From the IMG/VR virus record IMGVR_UViG_3300042891_001180: a stretch of 64,000 bases of DNA. One strand, given 5' to 3'. The position numbers were made by a program, and so were the translations under genes. The notes under the pieces are model-generated. The model had not been told where the DNA came from, did no database searches, and worked only from the letters and a program-made list of their open reading frames with translations. This document shows, piece after piece, positions 5,201 through 56,688 of this stretch (position 1 is its first letter; each line of letters opens with the position of its first letter). The DNA is from a virus.

Positions 5201-5250
5201 GTGGATTAGTTGTTGCCTTGATGGTATAATCCATAGGTGGGCTGATGAGA
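5201..5250 (+). repeat. Copy 1 of a dispersed 50-bp element containing TGGATTA-N18-TAATCCA and TATAAT
   Basis: 43/50 ungapped identity (manual alignment) with 55343-55392 on the minus strand. Confidence 0.8.
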
Positions 5251-51621: not shown

Positions 51622-52515
51622 TTAGTCGTCATTTGCCAGTTTGGCAAAGTATGAAAGAGAATCATCTGCATCGTCGAAATCAGCCTTGGGCTTGGCGGCA
51701 GGCTTTGCTGCAACCGGCTTAGGCATATCTTCTTCAAGGCTTGTGACTTCAGCACGGGGTGCAGATGCACCTGTTGCAGCCAGAACCATTTGAAGCTTTG
51801 CTTTCAACTCGTCATATGACTTAAAGTTTTTAGGATCCACAAACTCAGCTAATGAGTGTTGCTTCTTCCAGATTGACTCCATTTGATCGTCATCTGCCAA
51901 AGGTGTTGCTGAATCAAATTCAGACTTATCGTAGTTGCGATAACCTTCAACATTACGAATCTTAAGTTTAAAGTTAGCACCCTTCCAGAAGTCGAAAGGA
52001 TTAACTGGATCCTCGTCCTCAAATTGAGGTTGCATCACATCCTTGATCTTATCAAAGATCTTCTTACCAAACTTATACAGCTTAACTGTACCTTCGTTCT
52101 CAGGGTGTGCAGGATCTTTAACCACGTAGATATTAGCAACATAGGTTAGGCGACGTTTTTGCTTACGTACCAGATCTTTGTTAGCCTCGATACCAGAATT
52201 CCACAACTCAGTATTGAGTTCAGAAACAGGATCGGCTTTACCCAGGGTTGTAAGAGAGTTCTCGATGTACCACTTACCTGTAGGGCCTTGGAAGCCATGG
52301 TTCCAAATACGAACCCAGGGTAGCTCTTCACCTGCTGATGGTGGTAGGAATCGAATGACAGCGTAGCCGTTACCAGCTTTATCTACTTCCGGTTGCCAGA
52401 AGCGGTCATCTTTTGCGTTGTCTTGAGTCTGGGGTGTTGCAATCTTTTCGACTTCTTTCATCAGCTTGTCGAAGCCACCGGTACTCTTCTTCATAGAATT
52501 AAAATCTAATGCCAT
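51622..52515 (-). CDS. gp32: Single-stranded DNA-binding protein
   Basis: DDRFW, GNGYAVIRFLP, WYIENSLTT, FGKKIFDK, FDFWKGANFKLK, SYFAKLA. Confidence 0.97.
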   Translation of the reverse strand: MALDFNSMKKSTGGFDKLMKEVEKIATPQTQDNAKDDRFWQPEVDKAGNGYAVIRFLPPSAGEELPWVRIWNHGFQGPTGKWYIENSLTTLGKADPVSELNTELWNSGIEANKDLVRKQKRRLTYVANIYVVKDPAHPENEGTVKLYKFGKKIFDKIKDVMQPQFEDEDPVNPFDFWKGANFKLKIRNVEGYRNYDKSEFDSATPLADDDQMESIWKKQHSLAEFVDPKNFKSYDELKAKLQMVLAATGASAPRAEVTSLEEDMPKPVAAKPAAKPKADFDDADDSLSYFAKLANDD

Positions 52516-53788: not shown

Positions 53789-54093
53789 ACAAAGTAAATA
53801 AGGCCTAGCAATACTGCTTGAATGGCGAAACCAAATCCAATTGTCACTACCATCAGCATATCTTTAAGTATAGCTGATTTCACAAAATAAAGCAATAGCC
53901 CCGTCCACAACATCAGGGTAATATCTAAAGGAGGCATCTTATCTGTTGCACCTGCCATAACGGCAATAAAGCCTGGAATAGTTGCACCGATTAATACCAC
54001 AACACTAATCCATGCAAACGTATCAGCTGTAGCTTTAGTAAAGCCTTCAAAGTAAGAGAATACTTGATTCTTTAATTGGTTAAATTTTTCCAT
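53785..54093 (-). CDS. Membrane protein, about 3 TM segments
   Basis: Hydrophobic segments; start at 54093 after GGAG. Confidence 0.7.
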   Translation of the reverse strand: MEKFNQLKNQVFSYFEGFTKATADTFAWISVVVLIGATIPGFIAVMAGATDKMPPLDITLMLWTGLLLYFVKSAILKDMLMVVTIGFGFAIQAVLLGLIYFV

Positions 54094-54622
54094 TTTTCTC
54101 ACCGTAAAATATATGACGACCGATTTGACTGATTTTTGGAAGATTCCAATTAGGATTTACATAATCGGCATGATAGTACATTGCCTTATGCATTGAAGGT
54201 AATCTAAAGTTCTCTAGAAGTACTTTCTTAGCCACCTCCATTGACTCTCTATAATGAGCATTAGATCTTACCTTAGGACCACTTTCACAGTACCATGAGA
54301 ACTGACAAATGACTCTACCGTAAACTACGTTCTTCTGATATACTACGTTACAGATATCAGATGGAAACTTACCTGACTCTGCCCGATTTATTGTAACTTG
54401 TGCTACTGCAACCTTACCTTCAAAGGGCTCTGTAGCCGCCTCGTGATAGATGTTCTTTGCAAGACAAGTTAACTGTCTGTCTCTTTCCTCCATTGTGATT
54501 GGGGTACCATTATACTGCTTAGTATTATGATATTGGATTCTACTGGCGGTAAATTTGGTAACTAAAAATACCATCAATACCACAAGACCTATTTTTAAAA
54601 ATAGATTAAAAGCTTTTACCAT
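54080..54622 (-). CDS. Cell-wall hydrolase (SleB / Hydrolase_2)
   Basis: CLAKNIYHEA..E...GK.AVAQVT.NR, IC.VVYQ, CQFSW, YYHADYV.P.W, IG.HIFY; N-terminal anchor. Confidence 0.9.
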   Translation of the reverse strand: MVKAFNLFLKIGLVVLMVFLVTKFTASRIQYHNTKQYNGTPITMEERDRQLTCLAKNIYHEAATEPFEGKVAVAQVTINRAESGKFPSDICNVVYQKNVVYGRVICQFSWYCESGPKVRSNAHYRESMEVAKKVLLENFRLPSMHKAMYYHADYVNPNWNLPKISQIGRHIFYGEKNGKI

Positions 54623-54639
54623 TGGTTTTCCTTATTAAG

Positions 54640-54666
54640 GAGGCTCCTGAGTTAACAAGAGCCCCT
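54640..54666 (-). other. Stable intergenic hairpin without a U-tract
   Basis: GGGGCTCTTG-N6-CAGGAGCCTC. Confidence 0.45.
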
Positions 54667-54675
54667 ACCTTCAGA

Positions 54676-54948
54676 TTACTTCTTACTAATAGTCTTAATG
54701 TTATCTTGAGGGATGTTAGAAACAAAACCATTCAAGACCTGAGCCTTGGCAATAATTTCAGTTTCTGAGGGATAGGCTGGATAGCCTGGATGCTCTGGAG
54801 GTGTCTGGCCGGCATGTTTTGCCGTCTCTACCTTTGTGGCCCAGTCGTTAGATATTACTTCGCGCTTACCGTAGTAGTCGTCACCAAGCATATCTTTGGC
54901 CATTTTGAGAAGTTCGAGACGAATCTCGAAGGGGGTCATGTTACTCAT
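54676..54948 (-). CDS. Conserved T4-like hypothetical protein
   Basis: TPFEIRLELLKMA, YPSE.EII.KA..LN.FVS; AAGGAG RBS. Confidence 0.8.
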   Translation of the reverse strand: MSNMTPFEIRLELLKMAKDMLGDDYYGKREVISNDWATKVETAKHAGQTPPEHPGYPAYPSETEIIAKAQVLNGFVSNIPQDNIKTISKK

Positions 54949-54977
54949 AATAATCTCCTTTGTGTGTATGAGTGTTA

Positions 54978-55322
54978 AAGATGGTAGGTTATTCTGTTAC
55001 GAGGAAACCTACCGAAACCCTAAGCAGTGTTTAGGCTGCTAATGCGAACTTTGAGTCGTTTGCGTTTACTTTTGTTTAGTGTTAACGACAACTCTGTCGG
55101 ATCGTCCATCTTTATACTTATTGCCCTGTCGAATCTAAAACAGGCCCATCATAAAGACTCTTCCATGCGTTATGTGCTTCGAAATAACTTAACCAAACAC
55201 AATGCTCACATGCTCTACCACAACATGTCGTTGGTGGTATTGGTTCTAAGACCTTATGGTGGACCTGAAGGGATTTGCACCCTTGTCCAGAACTACTTTC
55301 GATTAACTTCATACGATCATAA
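54978..55322 (-). ncRNA. ssrA: Circularly permuted two-piece tmRNA: acceptor piece ~55322-55257, intervening segment 55256-55148, coding piece 55147-~54978
   Basis: GGGCCUG/CAGGUCC-A-CCA stem with G3.U70; T-arm AAGGG-UGCAAAU-CCCUU; AGAUUCGAC; tag ANDSKFALAA* at 55063-55031; inter-piece pairing GAUCGU/ACGAUC. Confidence 0.9.
55118..55312 (-). CDS. Oxidoreductase-like N-terminal-domain (CCGxxCxxCVW) protein nested in the tmRNA precursor
   Basis: EPIPPTTCCGRACEHCVWLSY.E....W confined to the tmRNA intervening segment; no SD seen. Confidence 0.5.
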   Translation of the reverse strand: MKLIESSSGQGCKSLQVHHKVLEPIPPTTCCGRACEHCVWLSYFEAHNAWKSLYDGPVLDSTGQ

Positions 55323-55342
55323 TCTTATTTAGGCGACCTAAT

Positions 55343-55392
55343 TCTCAACCGCCCACATATGGATTATACATGCTAGGCAACAACTAATCCAC
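55343..55392 (-). repeat. Copy 2 of the dispersed 50-bp element, immediately upstream of the tmRNA
   Basis: GTGGATTAGTTGTTGCCTAGCATGTATAATCCATATGTGGGCGGTTGAGA. Confidence 0.8.
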
Positions 55393-56041
55393 TCTTTCTT
55401 TCATATAGGTCCCGAAAGTACATTAGCCTCTTTACATGGGTATTTCTACGTTCAACAAACACCTGGGGCTCTTCATCATCTACTGCAATTGCAACCACGG
55501 TTTGAGCAACCGGGATCTTAAACTGCTCTTCAAACATAATGGCATATGCCGAACATTGCATAAAGTAATTCTCAATATCTTTACTATCTTTGAGTCGTTT
55601 AGAAGTCTTAAAGTCAATAACAGATAATACCCCATCAAATTCTGCTACACAATCTACGGTACCAGCAATACGCAAATGATCAGAGTACATACGTAACTCT
55701 TGAGCATAAACGTTATTAATACGATGAAGAGTAGGTTTAAATTTATTAAACAGTTCTTGATCTAGAGGACTCTTAAATGCAGGTACTTTATTATCAATAT
55801 ACTGCTCACACAAAGTATGAATACGGGTACCCCGACCAGACGCCTTTTGTGATATTTTATTAGCTTCTTCTTCACCCACCCTTTTGCGCCACTCCATAAT
55901 ATAACCTATGTTATAAGCGGCAAGAACGGTAGTGATAGAAGGATACTTATTCCCCTCTGGGGTCACATAATACCGTGTACCGTTTTCGTTCAGTTGTTGT
56001 AGTTTGGGGACTTCACGGTCAAGCTTTACATGATTAAACAT
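55373..56041 (-). CDS. PD-(D/E)XK exonuclease
   Basis: YPSITTVL, WR.RVGEEEA, RGT.IH, AGTVDC, IDFKTS, YFMQ..AYA. Confidence 0.9.
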   Translation of the reverse strand: MFNHVKLDREVPKLQQLNENGTRYYVTPEGNKYPSITTVLAAYNIGYIMEWRKRVGEEEANKISQKASGRGTRIHTLCEQYIDNKVPAFKSPLDQELFNKFKPTLHRINNVYAQELRMYSDHLRIAGTVDCVAEFDGVLSVIDFKTSKRLKDSKDIENYFMQCSAYAIMFEEQFKIPVAQTVVAIAVDDEEPQVFVERRNTHVKRLMYFRDLYERKSGLVVA

Positions 56042-56049
56042 ACGTTATT

Positions 56050-56688
56050 TTAATGATGTCCGGATAATACTTCAACTGCGTGGGCGAAATGTTTCTTACG
56101 GTCTTCTAAACCAATAGTACCACCGTTAATCTTTTTAGTCATCATAACGAAGTCGCCAGAATCGGCGTACTGGTTAAGATTGTTCTTATGCCAGAACCAG
56201 CATGCGGAGTGAATAGCGTAATAGGCATCTAAAAGAATATCAGGATTATCTAATAGTGTTTCATCCTGGAACATAAATCTTGAACAATTGCGATAGTTAT
56301 CTTTACCAGTCAATTGAAGGAGCCCTCGGCCTCTGAACTTCCACCCGTCACCAGATGATTCAGGTCCGTTACCCATCCTGCCACCATACGACTTATTGGC
56401 AATAAGTTCGGGCTTACCTGCGTATTGCTCCGCCACTCCAGCTGGGTACCGTTGAGGCCATATCCTCGTCAATGTAGCTGCTTTGTAGTTAAGGTTCTCT
56501 TCTAGCATTGAAAAGCCCCCTGACTCGTGTGCACACTGGGCAATGAAAGAAGCAACTCTTGGTACGGTTGTAATATTGTACTGAGGTAAAGCCTCACACA
56601 TACTTTCATACCAGTCATCAGGTCCCCCTAATGCCCGCGGCAGTAACTCTCTTACATGACTTTCAGTAAATTCGAAATCAAAACTCAT
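56050..56688 (-). CDS. GH19 (chitinase-like) endolysin
   Basis: FIAQCAHESGGF, EENLNY, GDGWKFRGRGLLQLTG, SACWFW, INGG..GL.DR. Confidence 0.9.
   Translation of the reverse strand: MSFDFEFTESHVRELLPRALGGPDDWYESMCEALPQYNITTVPRVASFIAQCAHESGGFSMLEENLNYKAATLTRIWPQRYPAGVAEQYAGKPELIANKSYGGRMGNGPESSGDGWKFRGRGLLQLTGKDNYRNCSRFMFQDETLLDNPDILLDAYYAIHSACWFWHKNNLNQYADSGDFVMMTKKINGGTIGLEDRKKHFAHAVEVLSGHH

What the first reader, a model, noticed from the sequence alone, without database searches (positions are those of the whole stretch)
54978..55322. Phage-encoded circularly permuted two-piece tmRNA
Seen: the 3' tRNA-like half (T-arm, CAGGUCC-A-CCA ending at 55257) is transcribed before the 5' half (GGGCCUG starting at 55147). 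The acceptor stem has the alanyl G3.U70 pair, the pieces pair through CAGGGC/GUUCUG and ACGAUC/GAUCGU, the tag reads ANDSKFALAA*, and a hairpin at 55013-54983 closes the coding piece. The T-loop UGCAAAU is non-canonical. Established: permuted ssrA occurs in alpha-proteobacteria and some beta-proteobacteria and cyanobacteria. Inference: sustains ribosome rescue or evades host RNase-based defence. No smpB is in this window.
Basis: partly seen in the sequence, partly recalled or inferred. Interest (0 to 1): 0.75.

Follow-up and report, generated by a model that had tools for sequence, protein, structure and literature searches.

The report
Phage two-piece tmRNA with coding spacer
A lake-water T4-like phage carries a genuine two-piece ribosome-rescue RNA (tmRNA) gene, a kind already known from aquatic phages, but here the stretch cut out during maturation also encodes a small cysteine-rich protein domain that evolves under protein-level selection.

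Summary
Its helices covary across 80 related viral contigs. The window is a T4-like phage found in lake-water metagenomes.

Phage-encoded two-piece tmRNA is already published (Melnitz paper, PMC9004378: 53 phage genomes), so the headline is not new. These points are new:
- **Type:** it is the betaproteobacterial type, not the alpha type of Melnitz.
- **Family:** it has at least 119 IMG/VR contigs and no member among 50,697 GenBank phage records.
- **T loop:** most members carry G at tRNA position 55.
- **SmpB:** none was found in the window or in five large relatives.
- **Spacer:** the 109-nt spacer between CCA and G1 encodes an Oxidored-like domain (PF09791, E 6e-9). Its pN/pS is about 0.2. 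It has no start codon of its own and is in frame with an AUG inside the acceptor piece.

A covarying stem closes the spacer. In other family members the spacer holds other small ORFs. This scan has already found genes in phage tmRNA spacers on other DNA. Processing, charging, tagging and translation remain untested.

The parts
55360..55391 (-). Promoter-like palindromic element (TGGATTA-N18-TAATCCA) with a perfect TATAAT at 55368-55363, about 45 nt upstream of the acceptor piece. A second copy lies at 5202-5233(+).
   Evidence: Two matches in the window against 0 expected. The two copies align over about 55 nt. Its role as the tmRNA promoter is inferred. The consensus scan instead listed TTGAGA-18-GATTAT at 55348-55319.
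55257..55318 (-). Acceptor piece (3' tRNA-like half, transcribed first). It comprises the P2b 5' strand 55318-55313, the P2a 5' strand 55295-55288, the T stem-loop 55284-55268 (loop UGCAAAU), the acceptor 3' strand 55267-55261, A73 at 55260 and CCA at 55259-55257.
   Evidence: Covariation: P2b 4 of 6 pairs, P2a 5 of 7 pairs and T stem 2 of 5 pairs show changes on both sides. The exact 5' end is not determined.
55148..55256 (-). Intervening spacer of 109 nt, removed on maturation. Its ends form a closing stem, 55257-55248 with 55160-55151. Bases 55150-55148 (GAU) are left as the unpaired leader before G1.
   Evidence: Closing stem: 9 of 10 pairs covary, and 93.9% of cells pair against about 50% when slid. 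Spacer length in the family ranges from 25 to 385 nt.
55118..55312 (-). 64-codon ORF that starts at AUG 55312-55310 inside the acceptor piece. It runs through the T arm, the CCA and the whole spacer, and stops at UAA 55120-55118, 27 nt past G1. The Oxidored-like domain (residues 23-52, motif CCGRxCxxCVW) occupies 55246-55157, wholly within the spacer.
   Evidence: PF09791: E 6.3e-9, 35.8 bits against a cut-off of 24. pN/pS is 0.18-0.20, with variation mostly at third positions, over 32 unique spacer copies. All 47 spacer-resident copies are in frame with an upstream AUG. Free-standing homologues of 47-62 aa exist. Translation itself was not shown.
54977..55147 (-). Coding piece (5' tRNA-like half plus the mRNA-like part). 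It comprises the acceptor 5' strand 55147-55141, the D-loop analogue 55140-55129, the P2a 3' strand 55128-55121, the P2b 3' strand 55105-55100, the hairpin 55099-55086, the tag frame 55063-55031, the stop-codon helix 55040-55023 and the 3' hairpin 55013-54983.
   Evidence: The 3' hairpin covaries at 8 of 8 pairs, and the stop-codon helix at all 5 of its pairs (4 plus an outer pair). The 3' end is only approximate: no intrinsic terminator was found.
55031..55063 (-). Tag reading frame GCA AAC GAC UCA AAG UUC GCA UUA GCA GCC UAA, which reads ANDSKFALAA*.
   Evidence: ARAGORN. The family tags are mostly ANDSQFALAA or ANDEQFALAA, and four loci share ANDSKFALAA.

Best explanation
This is a functional ssrA gene of a lytic, lake-water T4-like phage, in the circularly permuted form of the betaproteobacterial type.

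Shown: the gene order, the anatomy, the covariation and the family membership.

Inferred mechanism:
1. One precursor is transcribed from a promoter just upstream.
2. The acceptor piece (about 62 nt, ending in an encoded CCA) and the coding piece (about 170 nt, starting at G1) pair through the acceptor stem and helices P2a and P2b.
3. Host RNase P cuts at G1 and host 3' processing frees the CCA, removing the stem-closed 109-nt spacer.
4. Host AlaRS charges the RNA through G3.U70 and A73.
5. Host SmpB and EF-Tu deliver it to stalled ribosomes.
6. Translation resumes at GCA and adds ANDSKFALAA, whose ALAA end sends the product to host proteases.
7. The benefit to the phage is probably more free ribosomes while host mRNA is being destroyed.

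Before or instead of being processed, the same precursor also serves as a messenger. An ORF starting at an AUG in the acceptor piece reads through the spacer and makes a small Oxidored-like cysteine-rich protein of unknown function. That the protein is selected is shown. Its start codon, and the fact of translation, are inferred.
For: - Detectors.
- Type: the beta model scores 100-107 bits, against 39-59 for alpha and 31-35 for cyano on close relatives.
- Structure: helices covary across 80 sequences, and so does the spacer-closing stem.
- Tag: the tag frames are conserved, of the form ANDxxFALAA.
- Phage context: gp32, gp59, baseplate, terminase and PhoH genes surround it.
- Habitat: 18 lake-water DNA runs hold the stretch.
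- SmpB: none in the window or in 5 large relatives, three of them at least 95% complete. The host's SmpB must therefore be used.
- Spacer protein: a Pfam hit above the cut-off; pN/pS about 0.2; spacer lengths of 109 or 115 nt, which keep the frame; an upstream in-frame AUG in all 47 spacer copies, including a second AUG further upstream where the usual one reads ACG.
- Precedent: phage two-piece tmRNAs are published (PMC9004378).
Against: - The T loop has G where tRNAs and bacterial tmRNAs have U55. This might impair the elbow or SmpB contacts.
- The score against the beta model (107 bits) is far below that of bacterial members (169-296 bits).
- No experiment shows processing, charging or tagging.
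- The RNA runs were available only as contigs, which cannot show molecule ends.
- The AUG at 55312 has no Shine-Dalgarno sequence.
- The stop codon lies beyond the RNase P site, so only an uncut precursor could give the full protein.
- Relatives exist in which the Cys motif is deleted or frameshifted (P0004, P0005, P0012), so the protein is dispensable.
Confidence: 0.8

Rival explanations
1. The RNA is a decoy. It binds host SmpB, AlaRS or ribosomes but does not tag productively, so it dampens host trans-translation. A CDS-less tmRNA-like RNA of mycobacteriophage DS6A is reported to do this.
For: The T loop is non-canonical, with G55 in 83 of 87 unique family members. The sequence is divergent from bacterial beta-type tmRNAs. 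The DS6A precedent is mentioned in PMC11915505.
Against: The tag frame is intact and conserved. It has a canonical resume context, an ALAA end and a stop codon in a covarying helix. A decoy would have no need to keep these.
Confidence: 0.07
2. The tmRNA is real, but the spacer ORF is not translated. On this view its protein-like conservation is left over from a recently captured free-standing Oxidored-like gene, or reflects RNA constraints of the spacer.
For: There is no Shine-Dalgarno sequence and no start codon inside the spacer. The ends of the ORF are fixed by tmRNA structure. Decayed copies exist (P0004, P0005, P0012). Free-standing copies with their own Met exist.
Against: pN/pS is 0.18-0.20, measured among the spacer-resident copies themselves, in two length classes. 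The indel between the classes is 6 nt. An in-frame upstream AUG is kept in all 47 copies. RNA constraints cannot produce a Pfam domain match.
Confidence: 0.15
3. The gene is a passenger picked up from a host or prophage and is now decaying, with no role in the phage.
For: tmRNA genes are common integration sites, and fragments of them occur in prophages (PMC9004378).
Against: The gene is complete. Its helices keep pairing through compensatory changes across at least 80 diverged phage contigs. No close bacterial copy exists: 6 pattern hits in 185,579 species genomes, none of them a chromosomal permuted copy. No integrase was found near it in the genes scanned.
Confidence: 0.03

Closest known systems
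Two-piece tmRNA of Betaproteobacteria (Rfam RF01850; Sharkady and Williams 2004, as cited in PMC9004378)
   Same: - The gene order is permuted.
- The acceptor stem has G3.U70 and an encoded CCA.
- The P2 helices join the two pieces.
- There is a hairpin after P2.
- The tag has the form ANDxxFALAA.
- The 3' hairpin has a CCUYGUAACAGAA-like loop.
- The score is above the family's gathering threshold.
   Different: - It is encoded by a phage.
- It scores 107 bits, against 169-296 for three bacterial members.
- The T loop is UGCAAAU or UGCGAAU, with G55, against UUCGAUU-type loops in bacteria.
- The spacer is 109 nt and coding, against 25-43 nt in the three bacterial examples.
- No smpB accompanies it.
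Phage-encoded two-piece tmRNA of OM43 phage Melnitz and pelagimyophages (PMC9004378)
   Same: - It is a permuted ssrA in an aquatic T4-related myophage.
- It lies downstream of a candidate sigma-70-type promoter box.
- The proposed role is keeping the hijacked translation machinery running.
   Different: - Melnitz ssrA is reported as alphaproteobacterial in type and carries a glutamine riboswitch in its 3' domain.
- Here the beta model wins by about 50 bits, and no riboswitch reaches Rfam's threshold anywhere in the window.
- No member of this family is among 50,697 GenBank phage records.
- The sections of that paper I read do not mention a coding spacer.
Intervening sequences of 23S rRNA that carry an ORF (Coxiella burnetii IVS with S23p, PMC4990558, abstract seen)
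   Same: A segment is excised from the precursor of a stable RNA, leaving the mature RNA in pieces held by base pairing. That segment contains a protein-coding ORF.
   Different: - The RNA (tmRNA, not rRNA) and the processing enzymes differ.
- According to that abstract, the results suggest the Coxiella protein is not made. Here the ORF shows purifying selection.
- Here the ORF has no start of its own and overlaps mature RNA at both ends.
Group I introns with homing-endonuclease genes in the T loop of standard tmRNA genes (PMC11915505)
   Same: A tmRNA gene is interrupted by removable sequence that can carry a protein gene.
   Different: Here there is no intron and no splicing. The removable part is the linker created by the circular permutation, and its cargo is a small Cys-rich domain, not an endonuclease.

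Membership tests
Circularly permuted (two-piece) tmRNA, Rfam RF04321 / RF01850 | Covariance-model score above the curated gathering threshold | tested here: met
   RF04321 scores 110.8 bits (threshold 47). RF01850 scores 107.5 bits (threshold 84).
Circularly permuted (two-piece) tmRNA, Rfam RF04321 / RF01850 | 3' tRNA-like half (T arm, acceptor 3' strand, CCA) lies upstream of the 5' half on the same strand | tested here: met
   The CCA ends at 55257 and G1 is at 55147 on the minus strand.
Circularly permuted (two-piece) tmRNA, Rfam RF04321 / RF01850 | Alanine identity: 7-bp acceptor stem with G3.U70, discriminator A73, CCA end | tested here: met
   GGGCCUG pairs with CAGGUCC, followed by A and CCA. 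Charging itself was not tested.
Circularly permuted (two-piece) tmRNA, Rfam RF04321 / RF01850 | Helices that hold the two pieces together, supported by compensatory changes | tested here: met
   P2b has 4 of 6 pairs and P2a 5 of 7 pairs with changes on both sides. 84.9% of cells pair, against 39-50% when slid.
Circularly permuted (two-piece) tmRNA, Rfam RF04321 / RF01850 | Tag reading frame with a GCA resume codon, a hydrophobic ALAA-type end and a stop codon | tested here: met
   The tag is ANDSKFALAA* at 55063-55031. Such tags are conserved in the family.
Circularly permuted (two-piece) tmRNA, Rfam RF04321 / RF01850 | T arm with the usual T54-Psi55-C56 loop (typical of the family rather than defining) | tested here: not met
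   A 5-bp stem and a 7-nt loop are present, but the loop is UGCAAAU. 83 of 87 unique family members have G at position 55. Three bacterial beta-type genes have U there.
Circularly permuted (two-piece) tmRNA, Rfam RF04321 / RF01850 | Precursor is cut into two RNAs in the cell, and the RNA tags proteins with SmpB | not testable with these tools
   Only assembled contigs of RNA runs were available, and these cannot show ends. No SmpB was found in the window or in 5 related phage records.
Alpha-type phage tmRNA with glutamine riboswitch (Melnitz type) | Best match to the alphaproteobacterial model, and a glnA-type riboswitch in the 3' domain | tested here: not met
   On close relatives, alpha scores 39-59 bits against 100-105 for beta. 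No riboswitch reaches the gathering score in the window.
Oxidored-like domain (Pfam PF09791), for the spacer ORF | HMM score above the curated cut-off, with the CCxxGCxxCVW motif | tested here: met
   35.8 bits against 24, E 6.3e-9, residues 23-52. The motif is invariant in alignment A2.
Oxidored-like domain (Pfam PF09791), for the spacer ORF | Is made as a protein | not testable with these tools
   The evidence is indirect only: pN/pS is 0.18-0.20 and an in-frame AUG is kept.

The most novel reading that the evidence does not exclude
The precursor is a truly bifunctional RNA in which translation and maturation compete.

Ribosomes that start at the AUG in the acceptor piece must unwind the T arm and the spacer-closing stem, and must run past the RNase P site to reach the stop codon. 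While ribosomes are free and active, the transcript would therefore be used as a messenger for the Oxidored-like protein. When ribosomes are stalled or scarce, it would fold, be cut and become active tmRNA. This would be a built-in feedback that ties the supply of tmRNA to the need for rescue.

A precursor cut at G1 while it is being translated would itself become a non-stop message, and so a substrate of the tmRNA it releases.
Probability: 0.15. Interest if true: 0.85.

Novelty: new variant of a known kind. Interest (0 to 1): 0.55.

Why it matters
tmRNA is the main ribosome-rescue system of bacteria. Why phages carry their own copy is still an open question.

This locus belongs to a large freshwater phage family of beta-type two-piece tmRNAs. 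The family is absent from the cultured and GenBank phage records searched, has an unusual T loop and relies on host SmpB. It therefore offers natural variants for asking what tmRNA really needs at its elbow.

The coding spacer matters more. It shows that the supposedly disposable linker of a permuted stable-RNA gene can be a selected protein gene. In this phage the gene is read through part of the mature RNA itself. If confirmed, this would be a compact case of one transcript serving as both a structural RNA precursor and a messenger. It also gives a route to the function of the uncharacterised Oxidored-like domain, the domain named in human OXLD1.

Tried and rejected
**Whole genome.** No genome is held for the window, and its contig is not in IMG/VR. 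SmpB outside the window could therefore be checked only in relatives.

**GenBank phages.** blastn with the window's tmRNA gave no match. A majority-type family member gave only short chance or generic T-arm matches.

**The look-up of encoding contigs.** I traced the homologues through the search for related loci instead.

**Host identity.** This was not resolved.
- The single genome-contig scan gave 6 hits. Two are phage-like copies on short contigs of metagenome-assembled genomes. Four are ordinary one-piece tmRNAs or tRNA-like sequences.
- blastn identity to three bacterial beta-type tmRNAs is limited to stretches of 34-41 nt.

**Structure elements left open.**
- A candidate pseudoknot, UAGGG (55022-55018) with CCUCG (55004-55000), is inconclusive (helix 10).
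- The hairpin 55099-55086 could not be assessed, because this region exists in several non-alignable variants (helices 6-7).

**RNA runs.** Contigs of four freshwater metatranscriptome runs cover the tag and 3' hairpin part. The spacer is not covered in three of the four. By the tool's own rules, contig depth and gaps cannot show ends or levels. Two 'joints' across the spacer are probably relatives with other spacers. I count this as no more than compatible with the proposal.

**Oxidored-like protein.**
- AlphaFold on a free-standing copy gave pLDDT 64, so I ran no fold search.
- The OXLD1 literature gives no molecular function.

**Literature.** Two searches turned up no description of this freshwater family or of ORFs in permuted-tmRNA spacers.

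**Rejected reading.** 'Evades host RNase-based defence' is rejected as unsupported.

Full report
**1. Is it there?**

Yes. Read on the minus strand, the region holds the following elements.
- A 5-bp T stem with a 7-nt loop (55284-55268).
- The acceptor 3' strand CAGGUCC, discriminator A and an encoded CCA ending at 55257.
- 109 nt further on, GGGCCUG at 55147-55141. This pairs with that strand to give a 7-bp acceptor stem with G3.U70.

ARAGORN reports one gene in the whole window: a permuted tmRNA at 54940-55349(-) with tag ANDSKFALAA*. Rfam's gathering-threshold scan reports two overlapping hits and nothing else in 64 kb. These are tmRNA_permuted RF04321 at 110.8 bits (threshold 47) and beta_tmRNA RF01850 at 107.5 bits (threshold 84).

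**2. Is it a phage, and which?**

The surrounding genes match PHROG families of T4-like phages. They include gp32 single-strand DNA binding protein (51622-52515), the gp59 helicase loader, baseplate wedge and hub proteins, tail proteins, the large terminase, PhoH and exonucleases. The best gp32 relatives in GenBank are cyanomyophages, at 55-57% identity.

No whole genome is held for the window, and the contig is not in IMG/VR. Eighteen lake-water metagenome runs hold 30-97% of the sampled words of 54000-56500. The source is therefore an uncultured lake-water T4-like phage.

**3. A family, and evidence that the structure is selected.**

A 32-nt degenerate pattern over the T arm and acceptor strand hits at least 119 IMG/VR contigs, where the scan stopped at its limit. 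ARAGORN calls a permuted tmRNA in 96 of them. The tags are mostly ANDSQFALAA or ANDEQFALAA.

Eighty full-length copies were aligned. On that alignment:
- 84.9% of cells form standard pairs, against 39-50% with slid partners.
- The covariation score is 0.216 against 0.03-0.08.
- No shuffle of 500 reaches either value.
- Changes on both sides occur in 4 of 6 P2b pairs, 5 of 7 P2a pairs, all 5 pairs of the helix that holds the stop codon (4 plus an outer pair), and 8 of 8 pairs of the 3' hairpin.

The acceptor stem and most of the T stem were fixed by the search pattern, so they say nothing either way.

**4. Which type?**

On three close relatives the beta model scores 100-105 bits, alpha 39-59 and cyano 31-35. 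The gene is therefore beta-type, but a divergent member.

In a sample of 151 genomes of one proteobacterial order, the three true beta-type genes score 169-296 bits.

The family's T loop is UGCGAAU in 77 of 87 unique sequences, UGCAAAU in 6 (including the window's type), and canonical in 4. G at tRNA position 55 is thus the family norm.

The same pattern hits only 6 contigs among 185,579 species genomes. Two are phage-like permuted copies on short contigs of metagenome-assembled genomes. Four are ordinary one-piece tmRNAs or tRNA-like sequences with U55. I found no recent bacterial donor and could not name the host.

**5. What is known already.**

The Melnitz paper (PMC9004378) describes a phage two-piece tmRNA. 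It counted 53 two-piece tmRNAs among 18,146 phage genomes, 50 of them from aquatic samples. The tmRNA database paper lists 79 phage tmRNAs (PMC11915505). The kind is therefore published.

This family differs from Melnitz. It is beta-type, not alpha-type, and it has no glutamine riboswitch. No member is present among 50,697 GenBank phage records.

**6. SmpB.**

tblastn with a bacterial SmpB finds nothing in the window. The SmpB Pfam model finds nothing in five large related phage records, three of them estimated at least 95% complete, although it rings in all ten bacterial controls. The phage RNA must therefore work with host SmpB, AlaRS, EF-Tu and RNase P. This is an inference.

**7. The spacer is not just a spacer.**

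Prompted by earlier first-reader notes and by the alignment, I tested the ORF 55312-55118. It matches Pfam PF09791 (Oxidored-like) at E 6.3e-9 and 35.8 bits, against a cut-off of 24. The match covers residues 23-52, which are bases 55246-55157 and lie wholly inside the spacer.

An exhaustive HMMER search finds free-standing homologues of 47-62 aa with their own Met, plus bacterial proteins of 74-81 aa.

A scan of IMG/VR with an alignment of these proteins gave 61 loci.
- In 47 loci the domain sits between the CCA and G1 of a permuted tmRNA. The spacer there is 109 or 115 nt, and the domain is always in frame with an upstream AUG.
- In 8 loci an ORF with its own Met lies immediately upstream of the acceptor piece and reads into it.
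- In 4 loci the ORF stands alone, with no tmRNA nearby.
- In 2 loci my motif search did not find the Cys motif, so they were left unclassified.

In the relative where the usual AUG reads ACG, an in-frame AUG lies 22 codons further up.

Among 32 unique spacer-resident copies, pN/pS is 0.18-0.20, and variable sites are concentrated at third positions: 16 of 26 and 30 of 54. Some relatives have lost the Cys motif or are frameshifted.

The domain is thus selected as a protein in most carriers, but it is dispensable. Its function is unknown: the OXLD1 literature gives none, and the structure model was too weak to use.

**8. How could it be translated?**

There is no start codon and no Shine-Dalgarno sequence inside the window's spacer. 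The only in-frame start is AUG 55312, directly 3' of the P2b strand, and the stop lies 27 nt beyond G1. The full protein can therefore come only from an uncut precursor. This is inference.

**9. A structured, exchangeable slot.**

The bases just after the CCA pair with those just before the GAU leader (55257-55248 with 55160-55151). Nine of 10 pairs covary, and 93.9% of cells pair against about 50% when slid.

Spacer length in the family ranges from 25 to 385 nt. In 44 of 118 unique spacers an ORF of at least 15 codons starts in the spacer behind an AAGG-type box. That box is part of this closing stem. The ORF often ends at the UGA just before G1. Many of these ORFs encode small hydrophobic peptides, and some encode proteins of 86-123 aa.

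Earlier reports of this scan describe the same 'gene in a phage tmRNA spacer' on other genomes. My survey agrees with them. The window's case differs in having no start of its own.

**10. Transcription.**

A perfect TATAAT (55368-55363) lies in a palindromic element that recurs at 5202-5233. Many relatives have TTGACA-17-TATAAT, or a tRNA gene, directly upstream. No intrinsic terminator follows the 3' hairpin here.

RNA-library contigs from four freshwater runs cover the tag and hairpin part, but contigs cannot show ends.

**11. Verdict.**

This is a real, very probably functional phage tmRNA of a known kind. It belongs to a large, undescribed freshwater beta-type family with an unusual T loop, and its excised spacer doubles as a protein-coding sequence.

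Noticed in passing
window 5202-5233(+) and 55360-55391: A palindromic element, TGGATTA-N18-TAATCCA, with an embedded TATAAT occurs twice in the window (0 expected by chance). The similarity extends over about 55 nt. One copy sits just upstream of the tmRNA. The other is antisense to the structural genes.
   Followed up: partly
L113:9745-10446 (IMG/VR relative, 85% identical to the window around the tmRNA): Two copies of the T arm and CCA acceptor segment lie upstream of a single G1 and coding piece. Such a duplication could move leader sequence into the spacer, which is a possible route by which cargo enters the slot.
   Followed up: no
L154, L158-L162, L169, L170 (IMG/VR): An Oxidored-like ORF with its own Met lies directly upstream of the acceptor piece and reads into it in the same frame as in the window. 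In several of these loci the tmRNA part looks degenerate and ARAGORN does not call it.
   Followed up: partly
L145:2431-2800: This relative has compensatory changes in P2a (AUUCAA/UUGGGU instead of GUUCUG/CAGGGC) and a quite different T loop (GGCAGUG). It still carries an intact in-frame Oxidored-like spacer ORF.
   Followed up: no
L008, L024, L109, L077, L115 (IMG/VR spacers of 284-382 nt): Long spacers carry larger ORFs: an 86-aa Cys-rich protein and a 123-aa protein. These start behind the AAGG box after the CCA and end 4-15 nt before G1 (stop codon at or just upstream of the UGA before G1).
   Followed up: no
L199 = G011:C1:131426-134661 (Haliscomenobacter MAG): A second match to the permuted-tmRNA model (67 bits) lies on a large contig of a Bacteroidota metagenome-assembled genome. 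ARAGORN does not call it. I did not examine it.
   Followed up: no
window 55284-55268 in the frame of the ORF: In the ORF's frame the family's G55 T arm reads G-R-G-C-E, the same five residues as the core of the Oxidored-like motif C-C-G-R-G-C-E. With a canonical U55 it would read G-R-G-F-E. There is no nucleotide similarity between the two sites, so this is probably coincidence.
   Followed up: no
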